NCBI GenBank assembly: GCA_951406725.2
Contig: OX597817.1
Location: 105,648,001-105,712,000 of the forward strand
Direction of reading: 5' to 3'
Length of the DNA stretch: 64,000 bases
Origin: Octopus vulgaris
Taxonomy: Eukaryota
Part shown: one piece after another, positions 401-41,325 of the stretch
How positions within the stretch are numbered: the stretch's first letter is position 1
Layout: every line of letters starts with the position of its first letter
Position numbers and translations under genes: made by a program
The notes under the pieces: model-generated
The model's input: only the letters and a program-made list of their open reading frames with translations
Database searches by the model: none
Told to the model about the DNA's origin: nothing

Positions 401-492
401 TTCCCCACCTTACAGATTAGGAAGAAGGTGTCAGAGAGAGCACCTGAGAGATTGAAGTTTTTAGAAAAATATGAAGAATTGAAAAATTTGAA
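401..492 (+). CDS. TUBGCP2: GCP2 exon a (FPTLQIRKK...FLEKYEELKNL)
   Basis: tag| acceptor, |gtaaga donor; resembles the GCP2 FLKKYDELK motif; an alternative acceptor at 415 is possible. Confidence 0.75.
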
Positions 493-5914: not shown

Positions 5915-5947
<33 letters not shown>

Positions 5948-11015: not shown

Positions 11016-11050
<35 letters not shown>

Positions 11051-14000: not shown

Positions 14001-17000
14001 ATTAGGAAGTCAGTAAGTGGAGATGAGGAGGGAGAATAATTTTGGAGATGTAGTTTTTGCCATGTTAAGTAAGTGAAGTATAAAATAAGGACATAATGCT
14101 ATGGTTCTGACATATTTTGAACTTATTGTCTACATATGTAGCACCACATATGTTCAGTCATTCAACTTCTTGTCTTTCAGGAGCAATGATTTCTTGTTTC
14201 TTATTTAACCCCAATGTTATGAGTAAAGATATTCCTAAAAAATGTGTTGTTGATCCTTCTGGGTAATACTTAGACCAGTTGTTCTCAATCAAGGTCCATA
14301 TGGTCGGGGGGGGGGGGGGGTGTTCATATAAGACTTTGTTGTTAAAATTTATGTGTAATAAATTGCTTATACTTCTACAATATTTTAATTTTTTGAAAAT
14401 AATTCCTAATAATATTTAAGAATAAATATACAGTAGGAATTTTTTTTTTATATACATCAAGTGACTATGGAGGTCCTTTAGAGTAAAATGGGAGTCAAAG
14501 GAGTTCATAGGCAAAACATGGTTGAGAGAGTCACTACTCCAGACTAAAGCACTTGCATTCCAACTATGACTGTTCTGTCATTTTAGTAGCATCTACAACA
14601 ACATTATCCAATGTGCCCTTCCTTTTTAAAATGATATGGTGTGCCTTGACAGATTTGGATGCTGTTTCTTCAGAAGATGAGCAACTACATAGAAGCTCTT
14701 TCATTGGTTCATGGATTGACATCTGTTTCCTGTCATGCTTGTCCATAGTGACAGCTACAGTTAAATTTCCTTGACATCCAGCCAATGTTGGTCAATTGTT
14801 TTAGGTTATCTGCTTAGCTAAAATCAGAAATCAGTTACTAGTACTGACTAAAACTGTATCAAAACAGGATAATGCCACAGAATATATGTTACTGTTTCTC
14901 CTCCTATTTGCCAATGTAAGCAATCATCCTCATTATCAATTGTCAAAAATGGCAGCAGTTGTGTTAAATTGAAGCAGATTGCTGAAATAATAGGGTATAA
15001 CGTGAAGGTGATAAAAAGATTCTGATTAGTTTAGGCGTATTTGTTATAGATTGATTTGTAAATTCTTGTGTCAAACATTGTGTTTCGTATAAGATGCTTT
15101 ATGATGTTTATTCCAGTATTTTAAGTTTTTTATTTGTAAGCTGATGGGTTTTACTCTGAGCACTAATTTTATTAAAGTAAATGTACTTATCATCTGGAGC
15201 CCTCAGTAAAGATCCACACAATCCCTTGAAGGGACTGTGTGGGCCAGTGGAATATCTCAAGTTGTACATGCAACTACAAAGTTAGTGTTACTCCACTGCA
15301 AAACTTTGTAAATTATTTGTTTGTAGAAGTAGCATTTTCTAGGATCGGATGGAAAATCATTATTTTGACCAATCTTAGTTCAATGATTTTTCCTAAAATG
15401 ACAATTATTATGATCACAATTTACATCCTGAATGTAATTTAGCTGTAATCAGAAGTATTTTGCTTCTTTTTTTTTTTTTGTGAAATTTGAGAACTTTGTA
15501 ACTTGTGTCATTAATGTTGGTAAATAGACGTTGTTTCTGAAACATAGCAGTGTTGTAGTTGAGGCTAATAAGCTGATATCACTCAACAGAGATTCTTAGT
15601 AGAATCATCATCAGTTAGCATCCGTTTTCCATGCTGGTGTTGGTTGGATGGTTTGACAGGAACTGGCAAGCCAGAGAACTGTGCTAGACACCTGCTTTGG
15701 CATGATTTCTATGGCTGGATGCCTTTCTTAATGCCAACTACTTTACAGAGTGTTCAGGGTGCATTTTATGTGGCACCAGCATTGGGAGAGTCGCCAAGTA
15801 ACTTGTAAGACAAAGACCTCTTGGCTGGGAGGGGAAGATAGCTTTGTGCCAGTTGAGCAGTTATAATAGAGAGATAGAGATAGGTGTCTTACTAGGAGAA
15901 GAAAGAGAGATAATTAGAGGGAAAGATAGACAGACAGGCAAAGTAAGAGAGAAATAGATGGTGTTGGAGATGTTTTGGGACCTGCAATGAGGAGTGAATG
16001 TAAGTGTTATAGAGGGGAATGTTTCATAAGAGTGTGAGGGGAGATGTTTAGAAATAGGGAAGGGATGACTGTAGCAAGTGATGAGATGTGAAATTGGAGT
16101 GACTGGAGGTGCTATGATAGGTATGGGAAGACATGGAGAGAGTGCATTCATAAAATAACAATGTCAGTAAAATTATGACACCCATAATATTTTTTTTTTT
16201 ACTGATTAAATCACTGTTTATGCTTCTTTTCTTGTGTGTGACTAATAAAATAGTTAAACTATTAAACCTTTGATATTTGTTCTGTTGCAGGGTCGGTTAG
16301 CACTCCAGAAGTTATGGTTTTATTTACAACCAACAATAAAGACATTTGAGATTCTTGCTTCAATTTCAAACTCAATTAACAATGTAAGTTTTACTAAGCT
16401 GCATTTTTTCATTAATACTATCATTAAACATCTTGATTATTTTTATCAAGAGGTATGTAGTCAACAAATTAACTTAATGAAGAAGTACAATATAGAACCT
16501 TGATGTGACCTGAAGAATAAAAAAATCTAAGATTCTAATTGAGTAGAGTCTTTCATCTACATCTGTATGTTTTTACTTTAATTAAGAATTAACTGCTAAG
16601 ATTTAATGTAAAATGATATGAGACATCATTAAAATTAATTTAAGGCAGAAAAGAGAAATCTTACTGATTGGACTAGAATCATGTGTTTATCATAGTATCA
16701 TATTATTTTGTGAAGTTAGAATAGAGTTAAACTAAATACTGTTATTCGTGACTGCTATTTTGAGGAGATGGTATGGTTGGCACTCTAGTGTAACTGGTAA
16801 TACACTCACTTTGCAAGCAATAGGTTACATTGCTTCCACTTGTTTCTCTTTTCTTTCTTGGATTAGCACTTACAATATGTTGTAGGTTTTTTTTTATTTT
16901 TAAGGTTTACTTTTTTTTCTCAGTAGATAAAGAAAATGCTGCACTTCCTGATGAAGAGTATTGGACTCTGCAAGAGTCCTGTGTTGGTGCCATGTAAAAA

Positions 17001-20000
17001 GCTTTCATGTAGCACTTGTGCCAGTTCCACATTAAAAGCACCCAACACACATATAAAATGGTTGTGTTAGGAAGCATTCAGCCATAGAAACCAAGCCAAA
17101 TCAGGCTGGAAATTGGTGCAGCTCTCTGGCTTGCTAGCTCTGGTCAAACTGTCCAACCCATGCCAGCATGGAAAACGGACACTAAATAATAACGATGGTG
17201 AAGATGATGATGATTAACAGTTTAAAACTCTAGAAAACTTCATTGAAAACAAAATTTTTTTGTGATGTGACATAATTTTTCAATATCCAATTGGATCCAC
17301 CCCTCACTCTTTTTTAATGCCTTAAGAGGATGCATGAACATCACAACTTCTTGTTTCCACATGCCTATGTCTGTTAATCTGTATGAATATTATAGGGCAA
17401 CAACGGCAGCAGCAGATTTAAGTGTTTCGGCCACTTGTCTATAAAGGATTACATTATAAGTAAATTTTATGGATTAGAAGTTTCTTTATTGACTTCACAT
17501 TTCACTATATGTTGGTAGTGTCCCCTCAAGGTGGAGTGGCTACTACAGTGAATGGCACTAGCCATTCTCCTTGCCAATGCCTTCATAGTCATTACTACGG
17601 GGCATGGTTGAGCACCCCACTTGTTCTGGGATATGTGACCCATCACTACTCCTCCTCCTCCATCTTCGGCAGCTTTGTACCCCATACTTTTTTCTTTTCC
17701 TTTCTCATCTCTCTTCTTTTCTTGTTTCTTTGTATCTGTGTGAATCTTTTCAAATGCAACACTTTGAATAAACAAACTGTTTTTCCAAAAAAAAAAAAAA
17801 AGCCAAATTCTAATTTGCCTCAATAACTTAGTAATCATAAGAGGGCTAAAATAGATGAAGACTTGACAATCTGTGTGCTGCCACCTTATACTGAAATTTC
17901 TTCCTAGGATACAGATTTTAATATTCAACGACCCATCAAACCAAAGCTATAAAAACGCTCAGTGTGACTGGTATAGTTCACAACTGCGGACAGTGTATGC
18001 AGAATTGGTAATTGGTTCATTAGTGTGCAGTGCTGAACTCAAATCTTCCTATAGATATGAAGAATGAAATGGAAAATTTGTTCATTTTCCCTAGAAATTT
18101 TCAGATGGTTTAGTTCAGTGTTTCTCAACCATTTTTTTTTTACTTATGGACCCCTTTGATTCCAAATCATTGGAAATACAGTATAGCTAGAAACATTTCT
18201 GTTGTATTTCTTTCATTAAAACAATGATTTTTATTGCAGGGAAAATGTATTGGAGATGCTGTGCTAACACTTCTGCATGAAATGACATCAGGTTTTGCAG
18301 GGTACGTCTATAAATTTTTACTACACTGACAAATGTTTGCAGGTCTCATCATGTTCTTTTGGTGTATTTATTAAGTTATTGTCTGTAGCAACTGGCTTTT
18401 TTAAATAAAAGTAATAGGACAACTCAGATATCAGTATTGTTATCCTATATATATATAGGTGCAGGAGTGGCTGTGTGGTAAGTAGCTTGCTTACCAACCA
18501 CATGGTTCCGGGTTCAGTCCCACTGCATGGCACCTTGGGCAAGTGTCTTCTACTATAGCCTCGGGCCGACCAAAGCCTTGTGAGTGAATTTGGTAGACGG
18601 AAACTGAAAGAAGCCCGTCATATATATGTATATATATATATATGTGTGTGTGCATGTATGTTTGTGTGTCTGTGTTTGTCCCCCTAGCATTGCTTGACAA
18701 CCGATGCTGGTGTGTTTATGTCCCCGTCACCTAGCGGTTCGGCAAAAGAGACCGATAGAATAAGTACTGGACATACAAAGAATAAGCCCCGGGGTCGATG
18801 TGCTCGACTAAAGACAGTGCTCCAGCATGGCCGCAGTCAAATGACTGAAACAAGTAAAAGAGTATATATATATATATATATATACATACACACATTCAGT
18901 GGTTGGACAAAATAATGGAAACACCTAGAATCATAATTCTGAAATATCTATAAAACCATCAAAAGCTTGTTTGTTTTTATATTTTTTGATTATTATAAGT
19001 GTTGCTTAATATGTTTTGCTAAAATTGCTATTTCTTTCCAGATATCATCAGTAAAAGGTAATTAAAATTCATTCAAATGACAGATCTGTTGGACCTTCAA
19101 AGAGGTCAAATTGTTGTTGCTTGTATGGCAGGTGCTAGTGTAATGAAAGCAGCCAAAATGTTTGGAGTATCAAGAAGTACCATCTTGAAAGTAATGACAG
19201 CCTTTGAGAAAGAGGGAAAAACCTCTTCGTTAAAACAAAACTCCGGAAGAAAACCAAAACTTTCAGTTAGGGACTGTTGGACTCTTATGTGAATTGTTAG
19301 AAAGGATCACAAAAGTACAACTCCCAAAATTACTGCAGAGCTTAATAACCACCTCGAGAACCCAGTTTCCACAAAGATTGTTCGCTGGGAGTTGCACAAA
19401 GCCGAATTTCTCAGGATGGCAGCAATCAGGAAGAAAACCAAAACTTTCAGATAGGGCCTGTCGGACTCTTACATGAATTGTTAGAAAGGATCACAAAAAT
19501 ACAGCTCCCAAAATGACTGCAGAGCTTAATGACCACCTTGAGAACCCAGTTTCCACAAAAACTGTTCGCTGGGAGCTGCACAAAGCTGGATTTCATGGGA
19601 AGGCTGCAATCAGAAAACCACTATTTTCAAATACAAACATTGCAAAGCATTTAGATTATAGTAAAAATCTACAGAATTTGTCCCTAGAGCAGTGGAAGAA
19701 TGTTATTTCTTTGGATGAGTCATCTTTTACCCTGTTTCCAGTTGAGTATATGTGTACAGACACCCAAAAGAAGCATTTGACCCAGACTGCCTTCTTTTAA
19801 CTGTTAAACATGGAGGAGGATCTGTGATGATCTGAGGGGGATATATCTTGGAAATCTGCCGGCCCAATGGCTTCCAATCATGGTAGAATTAATAGTCAAG
19901 ACTATTTAAGCATTTTATCTGATTAAATTCATCCTATGTTTGTGGAACTTTTTCCGAAGGGAAACGCAATTTTTCAGGATGATAATGCAGCAATTCACAC

Positions 20001-23000
20001 AGCTAAAGTTGTTACTGAATGGCATGAGGAACATTCTAGTGAAGTTGAACATCATATCTGGCCATCAGAGTCCCCAGATGTCAATATTATTGAACATTTA
20101 TGGTGCATTTTAGAAAAACTATCATCACAACAAGAACTGGAGACTGTTTTAACTGAAGAATGCACAAAAATTCCTTTGGAAACAATTCAAACTTTGTACG
20201 AGTGTTTCCATTATTTTGTCCAACCCCTGTATATATATATATATATATATATGTATTTGTGTGGAGATAAAGAGAAATTACAGGATGCTGGAAAGAGGCC
20301 AAGTTGATGTTTGCTTTGCTCAAGAGCTAAATTAGAAGGAAACATGACAAGGCAGATTGTATGATGTATGTGTCCAGAGTTGTGTATAGTATACACGGAT
20401 ACTGAATATGAGTGGTGTACAATGGAAAAAATGAAGCGAAAGTACTTTGATGGATATGTAATGCTTAGGGACAGCAAAATGAATGTAGAAAAACACCCAG
20501 ATGTTGTAAGCAAAAGAGCTGACTGAGCTGTTATGTGGAACTTGTAGAGGATGACAGCTGGATAAAAAAGTCCCAAGTGATTTAAGTGTGTATGTGTCTA
20601 TATGTGTGCGTGTGCATCTATATATTTGCATATATGTATGTATATATATGTATGTATCTATGTATATATATATATATATATGTGTGTGTATATGTTTACG
20701 TTTATATATATATATGTGTATATATGTATGTGTGTGTGTGTGTGTGTATATATATATACATATACATATGTATGTGGAAAAAGTCCTAGTGGTATCTTGT
20801 CATGTCTGTTTACATTCTGGTTACTTCATTTTATGCCAAGGGTGAGCTTATTTTCCTGCTTTGCAAAGTTGACAGAGTATGTACCAAACACCTGGGATTG
20901 ATATGATTGATTAAATTCCTTTTAGGTAATGCACCAACAGGAGCACAGTCTACTGCTTGAAACTAGTTATGGTACATGTAAGAGGAAAGAGAGCAAGTTC
21001 CTCCTACTTGTGCATACTATTCTAAATAGTTAAAAGCTTAAATTATATATCACTAGATTGTCTTTTTAACAGATTGTTTCTTATCTTTTTAAATTAAATT
21101 TTGTTTTATTTCTGTATTTATTGTAGAGATACTAAAAGTCAAGAACTTTGCCTTTTTTTAACTCAAGCGGTAAGTTTTTATTAATATTATTATTGTTTTG
21201 TTTTTAATCTGCACGTGTGATACAGTAACTTGCCGGGTCACACCCAGTGACTTTGGGCAAGTGAAGGTTAAGAGATGTCTAAATGTAATTGAAAGTTTGG
21301 GAAGAAAGAGTTGGCAGGACAGTACAGCAATTTATTCATACAGCATAACGCAGTACACCATTTATGTATAACTAGCGGGACCTGTGAATATTTCACGGAA
21401 TTTATGCTAAACTTATTGGGTTATTTCTGAAATCTTTATCCAGAAAACATGAAATGTGTAGACTGTGTTGTGTCTATATCAAAAGATAGTCGCTCATTTG
21501 CTACTCATTGAAAAGTGAAAAAAACTGGAATATAATGATTACTTAATGCACTTTATATATACACTTTATATACTTTATAAAGTATATATATAATCTAGAA
21601 ACTTAATATACAGCACTCTCTCTCTTTCTCTCTCACTCTTTGCCTTACCCTCTTTTTCTCTCTCCTTTTCCTTTTACTCTTTGCCTTTCCCTTCAACTAA
21701 TCACGTGAAAGCGTTGCAGACAGGCTAAGTAATGGAGGAAAAAACATAAGTTCAAAAAAAACAATTAGACATTTCACTCTCCACCACCTCTCTCTCCCTG
21801 TCCCCGCCTCCTATCTCCCATTCTCCACTCTCCCCACCCTTCCTATCTCTCCCCATCCATCCTTCAACTAATTACATGGAAGCATTACGGATAGGCTAAG
21901 TAACAGTGACAAGCAGAATTATAAGATTATGTATGAAAGATAAAACAAAATAAAATTTTTTTTTAAATTAATGAAATAAAAAAAGTTTTTAAGTTATTGT
22001 TTTTGTTGAGTTGTCAGTAAAATGTTGCTTTGAGTTACTCATAAGTTTTGCTTTACTTGAACTTTGTAACAAAGATATGTTTAAAATTTTTGGTCTGTGT
22101 CTCACATAAGGTTTCAGCAATTTTGAAGAAATCCTCAGCTCCTTTGCATTTTTGTCCTTCAAGTTGGAATTTGTGAATTATTTCTGTGAAATTCTTTTGT
22201 TTCTTTAAAACATTAAAAAAAACGAAACAAAACAGAAAAAAAAACATTAAATTACATTGCAAAATGTCAGGGGAGTGAAATTACAGACTTGAATAGCTGT
22301 TTTAACTCTGCCTTCTCTATGTTAGAACAAAGCATCCCTAGTGCTGACCAAAACCTTCCTCATACAAATCTATTGTACTTAGGCCAAAAGGTTTTAAGGA
22401 TGAAGTCAATAGATGTGCCTCCAATAGTAAACATCTGCTTGTTAGCAGCTGCCCTTTATGACATATTATGTAGGTCCAAAGGACGCATAGAAAGAGTAAT
22501 AGACACAGGCACAATTGTGTTAGTAAAAGATTATGTTTGGAGGTCAGTCAAATTTATGGATTTGAAGTGACAGAATAGTGGTATAAGTATGAACCAGAGA
22601 CTTGTGTTGAATGCTAGTTCCAGGATATAAGGGGATTTCTTCATAGAGACTGATCACATTACTGAAGTAAGGAGACTAGATATGATTGTGGATGAAAGAA
22701 GGAACAAACAGTGTAAAATCATTGACTTTGCAATCCCATTTGATAGTAGAATGAATACTAAGGAAACTGAGAAAATTGAGAAATCGGGAGTGATCCAGAG
22801 AGATAAAGAGATTGTAGAACACAAAAAAGAAAATCGTTCCTGTGGTGATTGGGAGACTTGGCACTATGCCAAAACTATTACTTTAGTGGCTGAAGGATAA
22901 GGGAATTGAAATGTTTTGTTGACCTGCAGATAAGTGCCATCCTGTATTCTGCAACAATCCTAAAAAAGACTCTTGAAATTTAGGGAGACTTGTCATCCAA

Positions 23001-26000
23001 ACTCAGGATAATAATTCTGTGAGCTAAATTAGCATGTAATAGCTTACATAGTATAATAATGTTAACAGTAATAGTTTATATATCAACTACTAAGTGTTCA
23101 GTGAAACTGTGGGTGGACAAGGTGGCATTGTTGCATGAAAGAGCATGTAAAAAGAAGAGTAACATTAACAAAGAAACAAATTTCAAAAGGATAATGCAAG
23201 AAGGTGTTAATTGAAGGGTAAAGTTACTTTCTCGAGTCATACTGACTCATAAGGGCCAGTTTCATGGCATATATATTCCCCACCTGGACAGAATGCTGGT
23301 CTGTCACAGGATTACTCATTTTTATCAGCTGAGTGGACTGGGGCCATGTGAAATGAGGTGTTTTTCTCAAGAACACAACGCATTGTCCAGGAATTGAAAC
23401 CACAACCACATGATCATTAGTCCAATACCCTAACCACAAAGCCATGTGTCTCTACAAGTGAAAGGTTAGTGGCCAGAAAGAAGTATGGAAAAAAGATAGA
23501 TACAAGATGTGATTATGTTCTTACCAACATACACAAGCAGGAAGGAGAAATGTTTTTTGTATTTGTTTTGGTAGGGAAGGAAGAGCAAAGTAGAAGAGGA
23601 AAACTGGGAAGAATGGTGTTTGGTAATAGAAGGAAATAGCATAAACAACAAAAGCAAAATAGTATTATGAAATTGTTTAAGCTGGTGCCAAGCATGATGA
23701 TAAGTTATTTCTTATATTGGTTTTGTTGTTCAGAAATTCTGGACACTGCAAGATGGTCAATGAAATGGCCAGATGAATTGGAATGGTGGAGCATGAATTT
23801 ACTGTAAGTGCAGTATTTATGTTCTCTTTCATCAATGCAAAGTCTGCTTTGCATCGATGTAGAAAATGGGGTTTGCAGAATTGTAGCTAAAATTTGGAAT
23901 CACTTGGTCCAGGGATTTCATTTGTAATAGCTGTGAGAATTTGAATGAAGAGACAGATGAGGTACCTGCAATGATAGCATTTAATTGAAATGTCTATTTA
24001 CTTGACACCCCACAGCAGACATACAAACTGATCTAAATTTCGCTCTATCATTTTCACCAATGCAAATTATGACCAGTAATTATTATTTTATATTTTTGTT
24101 ACTTGATTATTATATTTGTTTAATATTTTGTGCTTGCAACTTATCAACAACTGAATTAAAAAATTAAAAGATATATGTTCTCTTCCAGTTTTAATTATGT
24201 TTGTGTCTCTTTTCATCAGGCGTGTGCTCCATACTTTGAAATTTTGGAGATGTGGATCTACAAGGGGATTATTAACGATCCATATGAAGAGGTATGTTGC
24301 TTCAGTGATATAAATGTCTCTTTCTATTTCATAACTATTTAAAATATGACTATCCAAAAAAGGTCATTTGAAAGCATATCCCTACCAATATAAAAATGTG
24401 CTGGAGAAAAGGTACAGAATACCTCCAGCAAGAGCAGGGTGATCACAGTATGAATGTCTCAAACCCATTAGCATTTGAATCAACCATATTTGGCTCAAGT
24501 ATTCTAATTGTTTCAAACTGGCCAGATCTCTCCTTTCACACTTACTTTACAAAGTCATTTAAAAAAAAAAAAAAGTCACATCATCGAAATCTCAAAGCTA
24601 TGAGACATTTCATGATTAATTCAAAACAATGTGAATAAACAAGCATTATATATAACATAGTGATTTGAATGCTAAAGGGTTATTCATATGTCTACTCAAT
24701 CAGGACTGATTTAAGACTAAGCAACAACTACATGAATTTTATCTTTTTTTAAATTTTAATTACTATGACTTATGGCCAACATTGTGACCAACAGATAATT
24801 TTGAATTATTAATGTAACTAGGAAAATACTCCATTTCTGCTTGAGAATCTTTCAGTTATCAATCATTAATTATTATTAATCATTCCTTATTGTTTATCAT
24901 TGTTTAATTTTTCTTTCTAGTTTTTTGTTGTTGAGAATGAAGAGGTCAACAAGGAGAAATCATACAATGAATATCCTTTTACTTAATACAGTTTTGTATT
25001 CTAACAGTGATTTTCACTTTAGAATTAGCTTAAATACATGAGGTTACTAATCTCAAATGCAACATTTTATCTATCTATTGTTAGTCAAATATATGTGAAA
25101 TTTTCCTGTACTTATTATCAGTATTTTAATTCTAATCTGTAGTTTTGTAATATTTATTATTTTAATTGAAAATTTTTTGCCAAAATGTGATCGCGTGTGT
25201 ACTGTTGGCGATTTTTTTCCTCCATTTTCCCTTCCTTGGACCTTTCCTTTTCCTATGTTTCTGACGAAGAGCTCTGCTTGAAATGTTAAATCCCCCTTCT
25301 TTCTTTCCTTTCCTGAGCGTCCAATAACATTATACTTGTTCCACGCCCTCGCATTGTGTTCTCTCTTTGTGTTTTCATGTTTAGATTAACTATATATATA
25401 TCACTTGGATAGGCCAGGCTGTTTGGTGAAACTGATTTCTGATGGCTGAACAGGAATAAAAAGATGACAATGAACTGCAGCAAAAGTATGATGAAAATGC
25501 ATCAAACCCAGATGAAAAAAAATTATAATGGAGAACAATTAGTGCATCAAACAAAAATAACTTGTAGTATTTAATTCTGTTAATTATCTCCCTTCATGCC
25601 AAAGTAAAACTCGGCACTTTAACATGGATGATAAAATTAGTACTAACATACTGGAGCCGTTGCAATTGATTTCTGAAAAATATAACCTTCACCTTCAGGG
25701 TACAATAAATTTTTGAGACATGTTTTATGGGAAAAAATAAGTAAATAAATTAAATAGCATCCTTAATGCCAGGTAGTTTGGTAATTAAGTTGCTGAAAGT
25801 GGCAGAGATAGTGAAATGTTAAATTGAATGGTTCATGATATTATTTGACTTTAGTAGCTTTAGTCATTGAGCCACATGGTTGAGAATTGAACTTCTTTAT
25901 CATATAACTGTATATGTCTCACTAGATTCTGTTATTCTTTTTCATGTTTCAATTATTGAACTATGACTACGCAACTGTAAAAGCAATGCCCAAGCAAGGA

Positions 26001-27146
26001 TGTAGTTCAATGATTAAGAAGTTTGTTTCTTAACTTTTTGATTTAATAATTGAAACTAGTAAAAGTCAAATAATACTATATGTGCAGACACGGCTGTTTG
26101 GTAGGAAGCTTGCTTCCCAGCTACATGGTTCCGGGTTCAGTCTCACTGTGTGGTACCTTCGGCAAGTGTCTCCTACTAAAGCCTTGAGCTAACCAAAACC
26201 TTGTGAGTGGATTTTGTAAATGGAAACAGAAAGAATCCCATTGTGTGTGTGTTTATGTATGTATGTGTGTATATATATATCTGTCTGTGTCTGTCCCTCA
26301 CTACCATGTGACAAGCAGTGGTTTGTTTATGTTCCCCGTAACTTAGTGGTTTGACAAAAAGAGAAGGATAAGTACCAGGCTTTAAAAGAAAAAGAAAATC
26401 ACTAGGGTTGATCGCTCGACACAAAGTTCTTCAAAGCTATTTTCCAGCATGGCTGCAATCTAATGACTGAAACAGACAAATGTAAAAAAATAATAATGTG
26501 AACTATTTAATCTGGTGTATACTATCTTTGCCATTTCTACCAGATTACCTGGTGTTGATGATGCGGTTTTTATACATTTTTTTTTACCTGAAATAAGTCT
26601 GGAAAATTTACTGTGTGTGCAAGAGAATGAATGTTACATTTTTCACAAGCCAATTTAACCTTAGTTGTGGGTTATCTATATTAAAATTACTGTCTCCATA
26701 CTCATCATCATCATCATTTAGCATCTGTTTTCCATGCTAGCAGTGGTAAGACAGTTTGATTGGAACTGATAAGCTGGAGAGCTGCACCAGGGTCCTGTCT
26801 GTTTTTGCTTGGCTTCTATGGCTGGATGCCCTTCCTAATGCCAACCACTCCACAAAGTGTACTGAGTGCCTGTCACACTGGCCATGACTATGATTTCATT
26901 TAGCTTGAAGTGTATTCTCAAGCACAAGGCAAAAATGCAGGCTGAATCGTCAACAGAACCTATGTGTCACTAAACTACTAACAAAATACTTGGTGGCTGT
27001 GTGGTAAGTAGCTTGCTTACGAACCACATAGTTCCGGGTTCAGTCCCACTGTGTGACACTGGGCAAGTGTCTTCTGCTATAGCCTTGGGTCGACCAAAGC
27101 CTTGTTAGTGGATTTGGTAGACAGAAACTGAAGGAAGCCCGTCGTA

Positions 27147-27190
<44 letters not shown>

Positions 27191-30100
27191 TGTGTGTATG
27201 TGTTTGTCCCCCCAACATTGCTTGATAACCGATGGTGGTGTATTTACGTTGCCGTAACTTAACAGTTCGGCAAAAGAGACCGATAGAATAAGTACTAGGC
27301 TTACAAAGAATAAGTCCTAGGGTCAATTTGTTCGACTAAAGGCAGTGCTCCAGCATGGCCACAGTCAAATGACTGAAACAAGTAAAAGAGCAGAGACTAT
27401 GTTTTTATGTTTATCTTTATTTCAAAATCTTCAAGCTAAAATTGGAGAGAGAAATATTGTAAAGTTTTTATTCTCTCTCAGTCAGCCTAACTTTCTGTGG
27501 ATCATCATCCACTTTTTTCTAAGTGGAATTACTACCTCTGTGATATTATTTCTTTGACTCCATCTATGTATTGGGAACAGAATTACGTTGTGAGAAAAGA
27601 CAGAACTCCAATCTTTTTGGCACTTGTTGTCCAAGAAGTATTAAAAACTGGGAAATATCTAAATGTTGTACGACAATGTGGTAAGTGATCTTTTTATATT
27701 GTGATTTCTGTTATTCTATAAATATTCTGGCACTAATACTCATTCCTTAATAGAATAAATATTCCTGAACATTAATTTTAAATAATCATGATCAAAGTAG
27801 GACCGGTTCAATATTCTTTAAGGTTGTTCTGTAGAAGTTCCTGGCCTCATTCTAGGTCAGAAAACTCATCTCTGCTGTGCTGTATTTTTTAACACCCTCC
27901 GTTGAGGGCATTTGCCTATGTAGGAGCCTCTATACCAGTAGTTCTCAACCAGGGTCCATGTAAGATTTTGTTGTTAAAATTTAGGTGCAATAAATTGGTT
28001 ATATTTCTACAATTCACAAAATATTTTAAAAACTTTTTTTTACAATTTCTAATAATATCTAATTATAGAAATATAATAGGATTTTTTTTAAAGATTGCTG
28101 TGAGGGTCCAGTAGAGTAAAATACGAATCAAAAGGGGTCCACAATTAAAAAATGGTTGAGAACCACTGGTCTCTACAGTCACTTAGCCTGCCAGAAATAG
28201 AAGATAGTTACTCCTAAGTCATACCCAACCTGCTTGAAAAGAAAACATATTGGGCACTAAGGCCCTAGATATACAAAAATATAGCTACCTTGAAAGATTG
28301 TCTTAAACTGTAAAACCCAACATTTATAGTAAGAGGAATTTAGCTGTGTGTTGTTCATGAGTAGAGTGTAATGTTGAAACTGCATTTCCTTCATGTGCAT
28401 GTGCACACACACATAATTAGCTGTGTTTTAGTTCCGTTGAAGAAGACTAGGTTACCATGTCACCACTAGAGAACTTTTCATAATCTTTGGTCTCAGCTGT
28501 TTAAGCAGTGTGTGGTTGGTGACAGCTGATATGATTGAAAAACTGAGGAGGCTTGAAGTGTCTTTTATATAGAAGTGTGGGATCTATTTGGTTTAGTTGC
28601 CAACATTTCAAAAATTAAAGTTTATCGAAATTTTTTTAATTTGACACTTTAATACACTTTTCCAAACTGAATTCCTGGAGTTATTTCACTATTTCCAGAA
28701 AAATGTTTTTGAAAAGTTATAGAGGTTTAAAGTTAGACAACAGGATTTGGAAGCTGTCATTTTGTGCGTGACTGCACATTTTGTCAACATCCTGAAAATA
28801 GCACGTGTTGTCAAGTTTGAATAAACAACATACATTTTGTAGTTTTAAGCATTGTGATAGCACAAACTTAAAAGATTTATCCAAAAACGTTATTTAGCTG
28901 TTATTTTTAGCACACCTCATAATCACCTCAATGACAAGGAAAATGCGTATTTTGTAGTTATAAGCATTCAGTATGCATTTAATGCAATAGCATGAAGTTA
29001 AAAGATTTTTCTACAAACAAAATAACACATTACAAATTAAATATTTTTAAAAAAACAAAGATTCTGTTGACCAGTTCATAAATTCACCTGCTCAGTTGTC
29101 AACAGATAGGTAAAACAAGTGGTTTCAATTTATTTGTCAACATGTGCTTTCTCACAGACAAAAGAGTTCTTATTTTCCACTTGTTACTATGGAAACTGGC
29201 ATGAATGAATCTGTGGCTTATGATTGGCTAGAATTACCTCAAATTTTCAAACTTTAATTACTAATAACTCTTTATTTGTTGATTTATAGCAAAAATGATT
29301 TTCATGGTCTTCATTATCTATAAAAGTGTATCATTACACTGAGTATAAAATCAATTCGAACAGAATGGATACTGGCAGCCAAACTGAATAAATCCAAAGT
29401 GTGTTGTTAGAAATAGTAACAGAGTTAAAGTTACTAATGTATAAAATAAAACGGAGTAGACAATTGAATCCTGTGGACTACAGAGTTGTTAGAATATTGA
29501 TGAGAGAGAACTTCATTGATGTATATCATAATGAAGCTATCTGATGGGAAATTTCTGATCTCAGAAATGTGTGGATGGAAAAGGAAAGTAAACTCAAGAA
29601 TATGAAACCAATTGTTGGTTATTATGAAAATCTTTCTATCTGAACTGAAATCCTTGTATTTCAGGTAGAGATGTAAAATGTCCTTATGCTGAAGAAATGA
29701 TTTATACATTGAATGAAAAAGGATACTTTGATCAAATTGAAAAAGCATATAATTATGCTTCAAAAGTTTTACTAAACTTATTGATGGAAGAGCAAGAACT
29801 GATGGCTCGACTAAGGTGTGTAATTTGTAATTTCTATGTTTATTACTGGATTTTTAATATTGATAAAAAATAGATTATTTGTTTCTATGTTATAGTCATG
29901 TTTTTCTCCCATATTTTCTAAATGTCTTTCTGTACTTTGTGGCCTATTTAAATGTGCAAGCTTCTCAGCTTAGTTTTGGGTTTAATTCCATTGCTCTTTG
30001 ATCAAGTGACTTCTACAACTTTGGATTGACTAATACCTTGTGATTGCAGTTTGATAGCTGGGAACTATACAGCATATATAACTATCTATATTTATAATTG

Positions 30101-32969
30101 ATGACAGCTATAAGCTTCACATTTTATAATATTTATGTGTGTGTGTGTAGTTGACAGCTATAAACTTCACATTTCATGTTTGTATGTATGTATGTATGGA
30201 TGGATGGATGTGCACACATTCCCCACAAACACATTTGCTCCTTCTATTCACTTTCAGAATTCCTAAAGCCACCAGCAACTCTTTGCATTAAAAATATCTA
30301 CCTCACCACTCCACTCCACTCTCTAAAGTCATTGTTTTCAGTCACTTCAACTCTCACAACTCTCAATATTTATTCCAAACCTTTCCAGACTGATGCAAAA
30401 ACTCTCCACTATGCAAACACTTTCAATCTCTTTCTCACCTTAAAACCTCACCTCTACCAAACTATATCCATTTCTGCATCCACTGGGTCATCCAGCCTCT
30501 GCCTTATTGCAACTATCCAAATACACCAATGCATACTACAGAACACCTCTGTCTCTATCATACTTCAAGTCAACCAACTGGCTGGAGCTCCACCAGTTTT
30601 ATTTCACTTGTCCCTGACAGCATACCTGCTTCATTTATGACATTTAGAAACAGCTGGGTGATTGATTGAACTTGCCCCTTTAGCTATGTCCCTTCATATT
30701 CCACACAGCAAAATTTCAATGTCCAAAGTCTCTCAAGTAGTTTACTCAACGCTATGCTGCAGCTGTTCAGACATAAATCAAGGCCTACAATTTTGGAGCA
30801 TCTCACCCACTCTCCAAGACTGGGTGGTATTCACCCAGCAATGCAATTCACTATTTGTGATATAAAGTTTACCTTTATATCACGAGATTTTTCCACCCGA
30901 TAAGCTGCTGCCTATCCTTTTGGTCCTTTGCTAAAAGAATCTCCCAATTTATGAAGTCCTCTTCCCCAACCATGACCACATCTAAATAAGCAGTACATCC
31001 CTTGGAGAAAGTCTCACAACTACACATTACATACCTTTTGTCAATCTCCTCCAAATATACTCATTTCAAACTGTCAGGCTTCTCCATCCCACATATACAA
31101 TTTCATCTTTGTTTGTGAGAAGTTGTCTACTGAAAAAGTTTTTACATCGCTCGACAGAAGCCATACTGATGTCTGAGCTTTATTTTAAACATGACATTGT
31201 ACAAAGTTAATAGTGTCTTTTACATCCAAGCACATCACTTTAACTTCATTTTGTGCTACAACAATTTCTAAGTGTAATAACTTATTTATTAATGGTTTTA
31301 AATTTTGGCATAAGGCTAACAGTTTCAGGGAAGGGGCTAAGTTGGTTACATCAACCCCAGTGCTCAACTGGACTTCTTTTATTGACCCTGAAAAGATGAA
31401 AAGCAAATTGACCTTAATAGAATTTCAACTCAGAATATAAAGACAGGCAAAATGCTGCTAAACATTTTGACTGGCATGCTAACAATTCTGCCAGTTCGCC
31501 ATCTTAATAACTTATTTAATAATGTACCTCTGTACAATCCACACGGCTGGCAAAAATAAATTGTACTTGTAGTTCAATGGACCAAGCCATGTCACATTCA
31601 GTGTGTCGCACTGAATCTCCCTGAGAACTACATTCAGGGTATGCATGTCTGTGGAGTGCTCAGCCACTTGCACATCAGTTTCACAAGCAGGCTGATCTGT
31701 TAATAGAATCAACTGGAATGCTCATCTTCATAACGGATGGAGAGCCAGGCTATACAACTATTGCATGAAACCTTTGAACAGGCAAAGTACATCATTTGAT
31801 AATGTTTTACACTATTTTACCTATAATAGGAATATTTTACACTATTGTTGTTTCTTTTATAGAACAGTTACTGTAGTGGAGCCTACAAATAAGCATTGGA
31901 TAGCATAGTCATAGCTTTACAGTGTCTGAGAGAAAATCAGTAGTCGTTAGAGGAAGGTTTTCCTGTGCTGAAGCCAAACATCAACAAAGAGAATTGTAGT
32001 TTATCTTCTGATGGAAATATTTATCTTATTCCATTGTAATGAGTTAATTTCAGTTGCATCTTAAATTGTTATATGATATAATTTACGTTTGTTTTAGGTC
32101 TATGAAACATTATTTCCTGTTGGACAAAGGAGATTTTATTGTTCAGTTTATGGATATGACAGAAGAAGAAATGAAACAGCCATATAAGAGTATCCTACAG
32201 CAGAATCAAACATTTTGTATAGTAATTCTGTAGAACTGTGTTTGTAGTATGTTTTGTGAGCTCTGAAACAATCATGGGAGTTTTTTTTTTTAATATTATT
32301 AGCATCTGCTCAATTCAGTTTTACAATCTTTTTTAACATTAACTATTTTGTAATTGAGTTGGGTTATTTGTCTTAATTTGTGGTGCTTGCAACCTATACT
32401 CTGAAAATGGTATGGAAGAAAATTTCATTATTGAATAAGCACTCTAATTGAAATTTCATTATTGAATAAGCACTCTAAGATCCCTAATTGAATTTCTCTT
32501 GAGAATGCTATTATTGAGATTATTATAGTTTCAACTGTATGGTTTGTTTGTTTTAAGTAAACTTGTATGTTTGCTATGTTGTTGTATGGTGTAATCTTCA
32601 TCAGATGTATTTGTTATTTTGTCAATATTCAACATAGTTTCCTGCCATTGTTGGAATTGTTCCTCCTGCTATTGCTGCTATTAAAGATATTGGAAAGGGA
32701 CAAATATGCCTGTATGTTTCGGGAATAATTTGACCAGTGCTAGTTGAGTAACATGAGTGAAGAAAAGGCTAAGAGATGGAGCAAGAAACTAAATATCTGA
32801 AGGGGATACATCAGTTGTCATATTTAAGTAGTGGTTATAGTATGAAGAATTTTAGATTGTTAATGCTGCTTTAATCATAGTAGAAAATTAGTAGTTTATT
32901 TGTGAGAGATGCATCTCTTAAGCCCCAGTTATCATCATCATCATTGTTTAATGTCTGTTTTCTATGCTA

Positions 32970-33018
<49 letters not shown>

Positions 33019-34010
33019 GTTTGACCAGGGTCTGGGAAGCCAGGAGACTGCACCAGGTTTCAGTCTGATCTGGTAGTGTTTCTACAGCTAGATGCCCTTC
33101 CTAACGCCAACCACTCCGTGTGTGTAGTGGGTGCTTTTTATGTACCATGATCAGTTGGTGCTTTTTACGTGCCACTAGCACACTTTCCATCTTAGCATGG
33201 GTTGCATAGACCATGATCTAAATTATTTCCTGTTGTGAGTTACTGCTCCCAAAGGCAAGTGTTCAAAGGTGTGATTTGGCTTGGTTTCTGTGGCTGGATG
33301 CCCTTCTTATTGCCAATAACTCTACAGAGTGTACTGGGTGCATTTTCTCATGGCATCAAAACTAGAGTGGTTGAACAGTCCTTGATGAAACAAAACTAGT
33401 GAGACCTAATATAATTATACACTTGTTTTGCTTATTTAGCCATCCACTTTTCAGTGTGAACCATTGGGGAGCCGTAAATGTAAATTTGGAGAAAGAACAA
33501 TACTGACTGAAAATCCAGAAACAGGTATTTGAGAGTGGGGATGGTGTTGAGAGTACTCTATAAACTAGGGCATGTAACTTGACTCAGGTGACAGAGGAGG
33601 GGAATTGGAGAGGGATGAATGACTGCCAACAGAATGTGACAGTCCTATAAAGGACAATGTTACTATTGTTTTAGCTCCTGGAAAACATATTTTCCAGCTG
33701 GCTATCAACACACAGTTTGTGTGTGTGTGTGTATATATATATATATGTATGCAGTTTGGCAAAAGAGACCTATAGAATAAGTACTAGGCTTACAAAGAAT
33801 AAGTCCTGGGGTTGATTCGTTCAACTAAAGGCAGTGCTCCAGCATGGCCGCAGTCAAATGACTGAAACAAGTAAAAGAATAGAATATATATATATATATG
33901 TCCAACCCTTGCTAGCATGGAAAACGGACGCTAAACGATGATGATGATATATATATACTAGAAATAGTTGATATATATATATATCTATATATATATATAC
34001 TAGAAATAGT

Positions 34011-34041
<31 letters not shown>

Positions 34042-37000
34042 CTAGAAATAGTTGATAGCTTCCGTTACCTAGGTGACCAAGTCAGCAGCAGGGGCGGGTG
34101 TGCTGAAAGTGTAACTGCTAGAGTAAGAATAGCTTGGGCAAAGTTCAGAGAGCTCTTACCTCTGCTGGTGACAAAAGGCCTCTTGATCAGAGTAAAAGGC
34201 AGACTGTATGACGCGTGTGTACGAACAGCCATGCTACATGGCAGTGAAACATGGGCCATGACTGCTGAGGATATGCATAAGCTCGCAAGAAATGAAGCCA
34301 GTATGCTCCGATGGATGTGTAATGTCAGTATTCATACTCGATAGAGTGTAAGTACCTTGAGAGAAAGGCTGGACCTAAGAAGCATCAGATGTGGTGTGCA
34401 AGAGAGACGTTTGCGCTGGTATGGACATGTGGCGAGAATGGATGAAGATAGTTGTGTGAAAAAGTGCCACACCCTAGCGGTTGAGGGAACCCGTGGAAGA
34501 GGCAGACCCAGGAACACCTGGGACGAGGTGGTGAAGCATGACCTGCGAACTTTAGGTTTCACTGAGGAAATGACTAGAGTCCGAGACCTCTGGAAGTATG
34601 CTGTGCGTGAGAAGACCCGGCAGGACAAGTGAGACTTCTACATGGGATGTAGCCAGCCCACTTATGCATACCTTCCCTTCTTGGGACACAAAACTCTACT
34701 TGTGAAGACCTGTTGAGGCAAGTGAGAATCAGAATCGAAATCGATCAATGGAAATTGCAGCTGAGTTACCAGTGCCGGTGGCACATAAGAGAACCATCCG
34801 AACGTGGCCGTTGCCAGCGCCACCCCGACTGGCCTCGTGCCGGTGGCACGTAAAAAGCACCATCCGATCATGGCCGTTGCCAGCCTCGCCTGGCTTCCGT
34901 GCCGGTGGCACATAAAAAGCACCCACTACACTCATGGAGTGGTTGGCGTTAGGAAGGGCATCCAGCCGTAGAAACATTGCCAGATCAAACTGGGCCTGGT
35001 GCAGCCTTCTGGCTTCCCAGACCCCAGTTGAACCGTCCAACCCATGCTAGCATGGAAAGCGGACGCTAAACGATGATGATGATATATAACTACTGATGAT
35101 GATTTGATGTGGCTGAAAGGCAAAGACAAACTGGATGATATTTTAATTTGTAAAATAGAATTTGTAGGTTTTTTTCCTTGACTGCATTGTAGACATAAGT
35201 TGTAGGAGAATGGAAACTTTGCTAGAGCTTGCTTTACGAACCAGTACTGCAAATGTTGATCCTTTCAAAGATGATTTGAGGTATGTATGCATAACATATT
35301 CTGTTTATTTTTTCAGAGACATTCACTACTACATTGGTGGGTTAAGCTATTATATAGGGTTTCTTTGATGGAGCTCCCTTTTTTTTGTTTTTTGGAATTA
35401 GTAGATATAATCTAATGAATATTATATTTGGATAGGTATTTATTAAAAATATTGTTGGAGAAATCAATGTACCAGACAAGCTGCTGATAAAAATCAAAGG
35501 AGCATTTGTGTGGTCACTTGACCTGCTAGAAATAACAAATCTCTCCCTCCCTCCCCCCACTCTCTCTCTTTGAGGGGAAAAAGAAAGAAATGAAAATGCT
35601 TAAGGTCTTTGAATCACCACAAATTATTTCTCTAGATAATATTTCTTAGTTTCCAAATGAATCCCCAATTTTTAAGTTGTAAAGAATTTATGACTCTTTT
35701 CCACCATTACAAGTGGTTATAAATTATGTTGTATCATACTTGGAATTCACTAACATACTCTTTATGTCTTTTTTCTCAGAAAATATCTGTAGTTCAGGCT
35801 CCACTTAGTGGAATGCTATTAGTAGTTTATAGTATGTAATAAGCTTTTTTGATTCTGTCTCTTGCCATTTTAGTGCAAATTTATGATTGGCAATTCACAG
35901 AACAATTTTTTTAACTGTTTCCTTCTCTAAATATGCTGTTGCATGAATAAGATGTAAATGAACACCAGAAGGCAAATGTGGAAGATGAGCAAAATGAATA
36001 CGATCTTTCTGAGAATGATTATTAAATTTACCATTAATGAGTTTACACTGCTAAAGTTAATTGTTGTAGGTTCTTGATTATGATTCTTTTTCTTTTTATT
36101 ACTATTACAAACTGTTGTCTTCATATTTTGAAGTAATGTGTATATTTTCACATATAAAATATGACCATCACAAAAACTAGCTTAGCTTTGCAAGATATAG
36201 TAAATTTTGTTCAAATTTACAATCAATGTCTTAGAATCGGATTTCCTCATTACAATATAGAACATATCATTAAATTGATCAAACATTAAGAATGTTATTG
36301 AACAGTTTGTTATGAAATGCAATCGTTACAATTATTCAACATTTAATATTGACACTTTAATGAATGTTTAAATATTATTTCAGGATACAATTCCAGGAAA
36401 CTGACCTAATATCTCAGTTATATGATATTCTGAAAGGTAAACAGGGATTTCTCTTCAAATCTTTTCTATATTTCTTCAAATCATTTAATTTATTTTGATT
36501 ATTAACTCCAAAAAGGAACTGTTTCTATCATTTCTACACATAATCACGAACATGTAACATGGGTTACTTTATACCAGTGATGTTCTTTTAACAGTTGTTT
36601 GTGATAAGAGTCTACCAAAGTTGTGGCTACTTTGGATGTACTGTAAAACATTATTCTGCAAAGTATTTTGTGTGCTTAAGATATTTTCTCCAAAATGTTT
36701 TATTTAAAAGTGTTTATGTATAATCACACAGAAATAGCCTTTCCTTCTTAAGAAATCTGAAATCAGATCTAGAACAAACAGTTCAGTATTTATTAAAATT
36801 TGGGTTTGAAACTTGTCAGTTCATTGTCAGTTGGATTTTGCCTGAGGCTGAAGGTTATGAATGCCAGCTGCAATTTAACTAAGTATGTTAACTAAGACTG
36901 CAAGTCACATATTGACCAAGACTGCTTGTCAAAATTCTAAAACTTGGTTGCTAGTTGGCCAAAACAATTAAACACTAGTTAACTCTTTTGATACCAATCT

Positions 37001-40000
37001 GCTTGAGGCTACCCCAGGTTCCATGATACAATCTTCTTGGTTTAGAGTGATCTAAATAAAAGCCTTCTATCAAAGTTTCATGTTAATTTATGTTTGAAAA
37101 ATCTGCTTAATAATGACAAAGCTATTTTTCTAAATGCTAAATTATTTGAAACATAAACAATGTACTTTATTAGAAACACGGCAACAAAATGGTTAACTCA
37201 ACATAAATGAGTTGAGAAAATGTCTCTTGTGCATACAATCATTAGCTGTTATGTGCATGAGAGATGAAAATGGAGGATACATTGTAGGGTCAAAATACAG
37301 TGAATTGGTTGGAGTAAATGTTGACTTAATATATGTTTTGTTTGTTTCTTGTCTGCTGATCTCTTTACTGTAACTTGTGTTTTCTAGCAATGCGCAGTAG
37401 CCCTGTTGAGTGTAATTTGTCTGGGCTGGAATCTTTCTCCTTCAATTATAATGTGAAATGGCCACTAACTCTTGTTTTAAATAGAAAGGTCAGTTTAAAT
37501 TTACTTTTACAAAGTGTTTTATTGTTGCTTTTAATACCAATGTTAACATGAAATTCTTCTCTAATGACCCAAAATTTTAATTAGTTTTATGACTTTTATG
37601 TATTTCTCATTTCTTGTCCTCTTTACTTTGCTTTTTCAGTTTATGAAATTCTGTTTTCTTCTGATTCGAATATTTGGTTGAAAAATGTTACTCCTCCTAC
37701 AATTTCACTAATATTTCTTTCATAAAAACAGATTCAACTTATATATATATATACACATAAACTGTTCCTAACTAGATTATATCCAAGAACTTACCAGAAC
37801 TTTGCTTGAGATCAGTTTGCACCCTTCCATAAATACTTAACTGCTTACATCTTTAGATTATAAAATTCACCATTGGAATTATTGTTATTATTTTTCAGTT
37901 TATTTCAACTAGATATGTTTTAAGTATAGAATCTTATGGTTGATGTTAGTTATGAAAGACACTATCTTATTTTCTTTTTCATATAGCTTTCTTTGAGAGA
38001 GAAAATATATTCTTTTAATTTATATAATTTATTATTTTGAAATGACTGATTTACTTTGTAAAAAGCCTTCTTTTAGCTTTGTTAAACCTTTTTACTACAA
38101 AAAACAGTTTTATATACCAATCTTTCTTGTTAAGGAATGTCATGTTTGAAACTATTTTTTTGTTGATATATATCAAGTTTATTGAGGTAACCTGACTAGC
38201 AGAAGCTTCCAATTCTTTTTTTTTTTTTTCTTTCTTGTTAGATATTTAATATCATAACTGCAATAACCATGAAATTTAATTTTCGTAAAAGATGGATGGA
38301 ATAGTGCTATAACATGCTGGAAAAGTTTGTTCTACAAAATATGCTATATTAGTATCTAGTATTCTTAGCAATGTCATCAAGAAGATGATGAGGAGTCAGT
38401 AGTGAAGAGCTGGGTTTGAAATATTAGAATTGTAAAAACTGACAACTATGTTTTACCATACAGAGTGATATAATTGGTTAGATGAGAGCTACTGAAGTTA
38501 AGCAGTGGAAAATATTTTCAGTCCTTTTATATGTACTAAATTCAGATTTATTATATTTCAACTTGAAAGATCAAACTTGAAGTCTGAATTTTATTGATAT
38601 GATAACATGGTGTTATATTTCAGATATAATTATAGAAAACCAGATCATCTGATGCATTATAGATTAAGCACTTCATAGATGGATCCTTGGTTCTAAAATT
38701 TATAAGTAGCAGTAGTAGTAATAATAAAACAACATCTATTGTGTGGTCTGTTGTTTATATATTAAGTGTAAGAAGTTGACAAGAACTCTGCTTCCTTTTT
38801 GTGTTACACTTCAGTGTCTCAGCTGCATTTTCTGGCATACAATTTGATGTAGTGTATAGTGTTAACATTCAAATATTGTTACTATCTTTTTCTGATCCCT
38901 GCTGCATTTCACATGGAATTTTTGCTCCTTCAATTGTCTTGGTGTATAAGTCAATCTACCTGTTTCAGCTGTAAATTATGGTCTGAAAAATGAAACTTGT
39001 ATGCTTGAAAATATGATACTATTACAAAAGTTTTCAGCTATATTTTAAAAACTTTTAGTCAAGGGGGATCTCCTAGATTTCATTATTCCACACTGGAAAG
39101 ATTCTTCTCTTTGTCTTCATCTTCTGATTTATTTTATTTTCAGGCTCTTATGCTCTACCAATTATTATTCAGACAGCTTTTCTACTGCAAACATGTGGAA
39201 CGACAATTATGCAAGTAAGTTTGAACATAGGCTTTTTGACAATTCACATAAGAGTCCAGCTGTCAATTCAACAGCTCTTTTATTGTATTAAATGTATTGG
39301 AGTGATTGGCAAATATTAAAATCCATAAGTTGATCTGAGAAGTCACAGGAAATAGGTATGTTCTAGTACTAAATTGGGTTGGAAATAGGGATACTGAAGA
39401 GATAATGGTTTGAGTGACTGTTGGAGAAACTTTGGAAACTTTTTGTTTTGTTAATGAAAGGTAATTTCTCTATACTTATGGTTATATCAGATATATGATG
39501 TTGCATGAAATAAAACCTGGTGAGTGAAATTTGAATAGTTCCAGTTCAATTTATTATTACCTAAGCCTTAGTGAAAGTGGAGGTATTATTTTCAGTCACG
39601 TTTGTTTGTTTGTCTGTGGACAAGATATCTCAAGAATCGCTGGATGAATTTGGATGAAACCTTCAGAGATGTTTGGCCTTGTGACTTGCATGAATTGATT
39701 ACATTTTCAGATCAATCTGGTACCGGATGGGAATTCTGGATTATTTGTTATATTTACTTTACATGAGGTATTACGATCTTATGTTGACTTTCAAGTCTTT
39801 CTCTGATTATCTCCCTTGAAAGTACTCTTATGGTTTCCATGTAAGTTATGGTGGCGTTGCTGTTTCCAAAGTTTTATTTTCATTTCTCTATTATTAATTT
39901 TACTCACATCTCTTAGTCGAAACCGATGGATAAAGAAATCACACTACATAAACAAAAGGCAGCAAAACCGTTCAGAAAGTAAATAACACTAACATGTTCA

Positions 40001-41285: not shown

Positions 41286-41325
<40 letters not shown>

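What the first reader, a model, noticed from the sequence alone, without database searches (positions are those of the whole stretch)
24971..27567. U12 intron with an AT donor and no conventional, well-placed acceptor (possible AT-AT intron)
Seen: exon o ends at a perfect ATATCCTTT. The only in-frame junctions before the conserved YW codons are ...GAC| (27558), ...ATC| (27564) and ...TAT| (27567). The AC is itself the end of the best U12 branch motif (TTCTTTGAC), so using it would need a different, weak branch site. The AT lies 10 nt after the branch A, similar to the 11 nt in the gene's other U12 intron. Known: U12 3' site choice depends on distance and tolerates rare AT-AT/AA/AG ends. Inference: a rare non-canonical terminus, or alternative 3' sites giving NEYW versus NDPSMYW in an essential microtubule nucleator.
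Basis: partly seen in the sequence, partly recalled or inferred. Interest (0 to 1): 0.72.

Follow-up and report, generated by a model that had tools for sequence, protein, structure and literature searches.

The report
Octopus GCP2 AT-AT minor intron
An octopus gene for the microtubule-nucleating protein GCP2 has an intron that transcript assemblies cut out between AT and AT instead of the usual AT and AC; it is likely removed by the minor spliceosome and likely arose from an old AT-AC intron by one letter change, a rare but already known intron type.

Summary
Confirmed. The gene is octopus TUBGCP2 (GCP2). Contigs from 3 of 3 RNA-type runs (3 studies, 2 organisms) join 24970 to 27568. The 2,597-nt intron 24971-27567 therefore runs AT...AT, the cut cannot be shifted, and the protein reads NEYW. 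No contig used the AC at 27558, so the NDPSMYW isoform is unsupported. A related species' DNA keeps the AT with no indel. The donor and the branch site (10 nt upstream) pair with the genome's own U11 and U12 snRNAs. The intron is old: 36 of 80 related loci have it at the same codon position, with 22 distinct acceptors (17 AC, 5 AG, 0 AT). The octopus AT is probably a derived C-to-T change. AT-AT is a catalogued subtype (about 1% of conserved animal minor introns). New here: a minor intron in TUBGCP2, which two mammalian lists lack; several public gene models broken at it; and a post-hoc hint that AT-AT ends arise by CpG decay (exon +1 is G in 5 of 8 human AT-AT versus 13 of 66 AT-AC, p=0.018). 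The scan noted AT-AA and TG-ending minor introns in other genes of this genome.

The parts
401..58312 (+). TUBGCP2 (gamma-tubulin complex component 2) gene, from residue 47 to the stop codon; the first coding part was not found in the window
   Evidence: Exon hits PDB GCP2 chains at E 2e-7 to 1.5e-6; exon map from Octopus proteins P0005, P0007, P0008, P0009
24921..24970 (+). Upstream exon (FFVVENEEVNKEKSYN plus the first two bases of the Glu codon)
   Evidence: Its last 30 nt equal the loose ends of the X17 and X18 contigs, its last 17 nt that of X11
24971..27567 (+). Phase-2 intron, 2,597 nt, ends AT...AT
   Evidence: Junction 24970 to 27568 in 3 of 3 RNA-type runs
24971..24980 (+). U12-type 5' splice site ATATCCTTTT
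   Evidence: Sequence; positions +4 to +10 pair with the 5' end of the genome's U11 gene, 6 Watson-Crick pairs and 1 G-U
24984..24986 (+). In-frame TAA reached if the intron is retained (...NEYPFT*)
   Evidence: Truncated models P0007 and P0010 end here
27550..27558 (+). U12-type branch site TTCTTTGAC, predicted branch A at 27557
   Evidence: 1 mismatch to TTCCTTRAC; 8 of 8 positions pair with the genome's U12 gene, 6 Watson-Crick and 2 G-U, with the A bulged; unchanged in DNA run X13
27566..27567 (+). Non-canonical 3' splice site AT, followed by exon base G
   Evidence: RNA contigs align from 27568; no difference here in DNA run X13; SLTPSM-YW reading in genomic ORFs P0001 and P0004
27568..27680 (+). 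Downstream exon (G + YWEQNYVVRKDRTPIFLALVVQEVLKTGKYLNVVRQC)
   Evidence: Contigs align 27568-27683 with 0 differences and go on into the exon near 29664
32190..35192 (+). Second U12-type intron of the gene, canonical GT-AG
   Evidence: GTATCCTAC donor, TTCCTTGAC branch, AG end; junction inferred from protein P0009, not checked on RNA

Best explanation
The 2,597-nt intron 24971-27567 of octopus TUBGCP2 is cut out of transcripts between an AT start and an AT end, likely by the minor (U12) spliceosome, and is likely an old AT-AC intron whose last base changed from C to T. Shown: the junction, the ends, the signals and their pairing with the genome's U11 and U12 genes, and AT-AC or GT-AG ends at the same codon position in other animals. 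Inferred: U11 binds ATATCCTTTT, U12 binds TTCTTTGAC and bulges A27557, and the 3' cut is set by distance from the branch A. The AT 10 nt away is the old acceptor position and the only in-frame choice in range; the AC at +1 is too close and the next AC and AG (+21, +23) are too far and out of frame. Retention would stop the protein at ...NEYPFT*, before its C-terminal half. The C-to-T step may be decay of the methylatable CpG in AC|G (weaker inference).
For:: one contig each in X11, X17 and X18 starts to align at 27568, with loose ends equal to the end of the upstream exon; A24970 differs from T27567 and A24971 from G27568, so the cut cannot slide; models of O. bimaculoides, O. sinensis and Argonauta read NEYW; 36 of 80 loci have an intron one base before the Tyr codon; 22 distinct acceptors, 17 AC, 5 AG, 0 AT; both ends seen in 5 distinct AT-AC and 2 GT-AG cases; branch distances 10-18 nt in the 18 acceptors with at most 3 mismatches and a distance of 9 or more, 10 nt in L002 and L028. 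U11 and U12 genes present and complementary. AT-AN ends are spliced by the U12 machinery in experiments, optimum distance 11-13 nt (PMC1557818 section; PMC3584512 passages).
Against: The runs are only guessed to be RNA and are assembled contigs, one per run, so usage levels and rare isoforms are unseen. No DNA run of the window's own organism was laid; X13 is a relative. Which spliceosome acts was not tested. 10 nt is just under the 11-13 nt optimum. Many AC-ending loci are close relatives of each other and unnamed, so polarity (AC to AT) rests on few independent lineages. The Candidula model P0072 (SLTCCI-YW) implies an AT end followed by a base other than G, which fits neither an octopus-only origin nor CpG decay (protein-level inference only).
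Confidence: 0.9

Rival explanations
1. Alternative 3' sites are used in a regulated way, giving NEYW (27567) and NDPSMYW (AC at 27558) isoforms.
For: The AC at 27558 is in frame and canonical for an AT donor; U12 3' site choice is described as error-prone (PMC3584512 passage); contigs drop rare variants.
Against: 0 of 3 runs show a contig for 27558 or 27564, and the contigs run unbroken across the junction. The AC is 1 nt from the branch A. 0 of the 3 full-length octopod models show it.
Confidence: 0.05
2. The AT is an assembly error or private variant, and the true end is AC.
For: All 17 A/C-type orthologous acceptors seen as DNA end in AC; no DNA run of the window's own organism was laid.
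Against: DNA run X13 of a related organism (depth 48.9) spans 27450-27730 with no gap and no difference at 27566-27567. Genomic ORFs P0001 and P0004 and the O. bimaculoides model P0011 need ATG at this place.
Confidence: 0.02
3. The true cut lies 1-4 nt further right (ends TA...TG to CC...AT) and the G seen at the junction is an A edited to inosine, as is common in cephalopods (recalled).
For: The protein NEYW is the same under this reading (maps NEY to 24974).
Against: It needs near-complete editing in 3 of 3 runs, breaks the perfect U12 donor, and departs from the phase-2 position kept in 36 loci.
Confidence: 0.02
4. The intron is removed by the major (U2) spliceosome despite its ends.
For: One U2-classed AT_AT row exists in a human table; the 10 nt before the end are pyrimidine-rich.
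Against: Both U12 signals are present and pair with U11 and U12; orthologues carry U12 signals; there is no GT at or near the cut.
Confidence: 0.02

Closest known systems
Human AT-AT U12-type introns: ERCC5, IK, KCMF1, SMC3, UBR3, TCTN1, HNRNPLL, SRSF12 (PMC8280824 supplement file 1 rows; PMC1557818 Tables 2-3)
   Same: ATATCCTTT-type donor, U12 branch motif about 10-13 nt upstream, AT end; 5 of these 8 also have G as first exon base.
   Different: Different gene and phylum. TUBGCP2 is absent from the mammalian minor-intron lists searched.
Subtype switching AT-AC to AT-AT between orthologues: ERCC5, Gpaa1, Zc3hdc6, Slc9a8 (PMC1557818 Table 3)
   Same: Same intron position, AC in one species and AT in another.
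   Different: Here the position also shows GT-AG forms and losses across animals, and the AT is shared by several octopus species.
Pan-animal census of non-canonical minor intron ends (Larue and Roy 2023, PMC10639083; passages, supplement row)
   Same: [quoted passage not shown]
   Different: O. sinensis and O. bimaculoides are in that survey, so this intron may sit in its online database; the supplement held does not name TUBGCP2.

Membership tests
U12-type (minor) intron | 5' splice site RTATCCTT at the true intron start | tested here: met
   ATATCCTTT at 24971, the start fixed by RNA contigs; pairs with U11
U12-type (minor) intron | Branch site close to TTCCTTRAC | tested here: met
   TTCTTTGAC, 1 mismatch; 8 of 8 pair with U12 including 2 G-U
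U12-type (minor) intron | Short branch-to-3'-end distance (optimum 11-13 nt) | tested here: met
   10 nt, one under the optimum in PMC3584512 and equal to orthologues L002 and L028
U12-type (minor) intron | No distinct polypyrimidine tract | tested here: inconclusive
   Only 10 nt separate branch A and end, 8 of them pyrimidines
U12-type (minor) intron | Minor spliceosome present in the organism | tested here: met
   U12 125 bits, U11 94.5 bits; U4atac and U6atac not searched
U12-type (minor) intron | Removal depends on the U12 spliceosome | not testable with these tools
   Needs knockdown or lariat mapping
AT-AT (A-type, AT-AN) subtype | Terminal dinucleotides AT and AT at a transcript-defined, non-shiftable junction | tested here: met
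   3 of 3 runs; flanking bases forbid a shift
Alternatively spliced U12 acceptor | A second acceptor seen in transcripts | tested here: inconclusive
   0 of 3 contig sets show one, but contigs drop rare forms

The most novel reading that the evidence does not exclude
AT-AT minor introns arise largely by CpG decay at AC|G intron-exon borders, and octopus GCP2 is a clean invertebrate case: an intron as old as the cnidarian-bilaterian split, AC in relatives, AT|G in octopuses. If so, DNA methylation, not selection for weak splicing, explains much of the second commonest non-canonical minor intron class, and AT-AT ends should be rarer in lineages without gene-body methylation.
Probability: 0.35. 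Interest if true: 0.5.

Novelty: new member of a known kind. Interest (0 to 1): 0.3.

Why it matters
It is a verified natural case of a minor intron whose 3' end is set by distance from the branch site rather than by its last letter, in a core microtubule-nucleation gene. It shows that GCP2 held a minor intron in early animals that mammalian lists lack. It explains why two octopus annotations split the gene and why seven other invertebrate models are wrong at this spot. The CpG-decay idea gives a cheap genome-wide test of where AT-AT ends come from. It does not reveal a new splicing mechanism.

Tried and rejected
A lay of the RNA runs across both exons gave no result, so the junction is read from loose ends on the acceptor side, and no count of public runs with the joined form was obtained. 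The run search listed no holder on record as RNA; the three runs are RNA by guess, though their contigs join exons on both sides. No RNA contig covers the intron end; this is not taken as evidence against retention. The acceptor at 27564 (NDMYW), which I first favoured because it matches the YND-x-YW spacing of other animals, was rejected. An intervening exon was rejected by the same call. Donor motif count alone is at chance level. U11 pairing used the wrong strand and was redone. Assigning unnamed loci to taxa by best hit gave only weak, lophotrochozoan-like calls. Two experimental papers on U12 3' sites, ids recalled, are not held. Paper searches: TUBGCP2 + U12-type, 0 papers; gamma-tubulin complex + minor intron + U12, 3 listings, none on this intron by title; octopus + U12-type + minor spliceosome, 3 listings; CpG + AT-AC + U12 + deamination + splice site, 3 listings, one read in passages with nothing on CpG origin of AT-AT ends. 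Supplements not seen (bioRxiv files, file 13 of PMC8280824, online intron databases) may list this intron.

Full report
Gene and observation. The exon at 27569-27679 matches GCP2 chains in the PDB. Octopus GCP2 proteins map exon by exon along the + strand from 401 to 58309. The two O. vulgaris pieces P0007 and P0005 match the window and break exactly at this intron, one ending ...NEYPFT*, the other starting MYWEQ.

The junction. I laid 4 of the 24 listed runs on 27450-27730: three guessed to be RNA, from three studies and two organisms, and one DNA run of a third organism. Each RNA-type run gave one contig aligned over 27568-27683 with 0 differences. The loose end before 27568 equals the last 30 nt of the exon ending at 24970 in X17 and X18 and its last 17 nt in X11 (compare). 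The loose end behind continues into the next exon, so these are spliced molecules. The junction is 24970 to 27568. It cannot slide, because A24970 differs from T27567 and A24971 from G27568. The intron is 2,597 nt, AT...AT, and the protein reads NEYW, as in the models of O. bimaculoides, O. sinensis and Argonauta hians. No contig used 27558 or 27564; contigs drop rare forms, so a minor isoform is not excluded. The DNA run spans the stretch without gaps; the 10 listed differences include C27564T but leave the branch motif and the terminal AT unchanged. Genomic ORFs P0001 and P0004 (SLTPSM-YW) and the O. bimaculoides model P0011 (M-YW) also need AT followed by G.

Mechanism. The genome holds U12 and U11 genes. 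Donor positions +4 to +10 pair with the U11 5' end, and the branch motif pairs at 8 of 8 positions with U12 when A27557 is bulged. Candidate ends after the branch A are AC +1 (in frame), AT +6 (out), AT +10 (in frame), AT +14 (out), AA +20, AC +21 and AG +23 (all out) and AA +25 (in frame, beyond the YW codons). A review gives 11-13 nt as the optimum distance (PMC3584512, passages), and AT-AN ends are reported to splice productively (PMC1557818, section 23). So the likely rule is: the branch site fixes the region and the AT at +10 is used. That U12 does the cutting is inferred, not tested. A-type minor introns are reported to splice less efficiently and to depend on CENATAC in human cells (PMC8280824, passages); whether that holds here is untested.

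Age of the intron. Of 80 related metagenome loci, 36 have an intron ending one base before the Tyr codon, 42 have none there and 2 are uninformative (classed by eye from the printed sequence). The 36 collapse to 22 distinct acceptors: 17 AC, 5 AG, 0 AT. Both ends are present in five distinct AT-AC cases (L003, L013/L014, L021, L027/L030/L032, L047) and two GT-AG cases (L002, L008). Many AC loci are near relatives, and best hits place them only loosely among lophotrochozoan-like animals, with L002 and L003 nearest to clams. Named but mis-annotated proteins add lineages: Plakobranchus, Elysia, Nucella, Mactra and Capitella read through the donor as x-Y-P-F/L, the translation of RTATCCTT; Nematostella reads in from the acceptor as ALTCHT-YW, the octopus register with an AC end; Candidula reads SLTCCI-YW, which implies an AT end. 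These are inferences from protein letters. Together they make the intron as old as the cnidarian-bilaterian split, with losses, GT-AG forms and at least one AT form. TUBGCP2 is absent from the supplements of PMC6717393 (controls ERCC5 and GPAA1 found) and of PMC8280824 (12 of 13 files). Whether mammals lost or converted the intron was not tested.

Origin of the AT. The first exon base in octopus is G, so an ancestral AC|G was a CpG, and the window is CpG-poor (observed/expected 0.25). That methylated CpG decays to TpG is established knowledge, recalled. As a post-hoc test I counted the first exon base by hand in the human A-type table of PMC8280824 file 1: G in 5 of 8 AT-AT rows and in 13 of 66 distinct AT-AC acceptors (hits 1-45 and 91-112 of 228, 67 rows, one duplicate acceptor dropped), Fisher p = 0.018. 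Against it: 3 of 8 human cases have A, SRSF12 (AT|A) pairs with SRSF10 (AC|A), the Candidula inference has no G, the sample is partial and human only, and a splicing preference for AT|G would give the same skew.

Comparison with what is known. AT-AT is a catalogued U12 subtype: 6 human and 6 mouse cases with AC-to-AT switches between orthologues (PMC1557818 Tables 2-3), and 701 introns, 0.952% of conserved animal minor introns (PMC10639083, passages, supplement row). PMC2831892 (passages) covers other odd ends and adds nothing on AT-AT. It works like these and meets every testable defining feature. I found no paper naming a U12 intron in TUBGCP2, but two Octopus species are in the pan-eukaryotic survey and their RefSeq proteins already read NEYW, so it may be in an online database that I could not see. 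Earlier notes of this scan report AT-AA and TG-ending minor introns in other genes of this genome (unchecked) and led me to PMC8280824.

Verdict. A real AT-AT minor-type intron, a new member of a known kind. Interest 0.3. The boldest open reading is CpG decay as a general source of AT-AT ends (probability 0.35, interest 0.5).

Noticed in passing
window 24921-24970 and proteins P0002-P0138: The GCP2 loop between DPY.EF and YW is 16 residues in octopods (3 proteins) and 15 in a Sepia-containing cluster and one close unnamed protein (8 proteins), against 19-20 in 108 of the other 111 proteins parsed. Cephalopods lost 4-5 residues from the exon before this intron; the structural effect is unknown.
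   Followed up: partly
window 32190-35192; protein P0067: The second U12-type intron is GT-AG in octopus. The Nucella model has an insertion at the same place that begins D-I-L, which would be read-through of an AT-type donor, so this intron may also switch subtype among molluscs.
   Followed up: partly
P0005, P0007, P0010, P0011, P0021, P0038, P0067, P0068, P0072, P0075, P0081, P0153: Public gene models are split or mis-spliced at the focal intron in O. vulgaris, one O. bimaculoides set and seven or eight other invertebrates.
   Followed up: yes
L044 near 926; L048, L049, L055, L056: Introns at the same position end in AG without a U12 branch motif (5 mismatches): possible conversion to the major type; donors not in the loci.
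   Followed up: no
L053, L073, L074, L076: Distant loci have introns at other positions a few codons downstream in this region.
   Followed up: no
window about 26090-26490 and 26990-27400: Two similar repeat copies with TG/TA microsatellites lie inside the intron (seen by eye; microsatellites); SINE-like by recall, not tested.
   Followed up: no
window 19477-20304 (+), 43299-43727 (-), 33916-34629 (+): Open frames resembling Tc1/mariner transposase and LINE-type retroelement remnants in introns; names recalled from motifs, not tested.
   Followed up: no
G000:C3, C15, C17, C18; C8, C12: Five U11 matches (three at 84-95 bits) and three U12 matches (one at 125 bits) in the genome.
   Followed up: no
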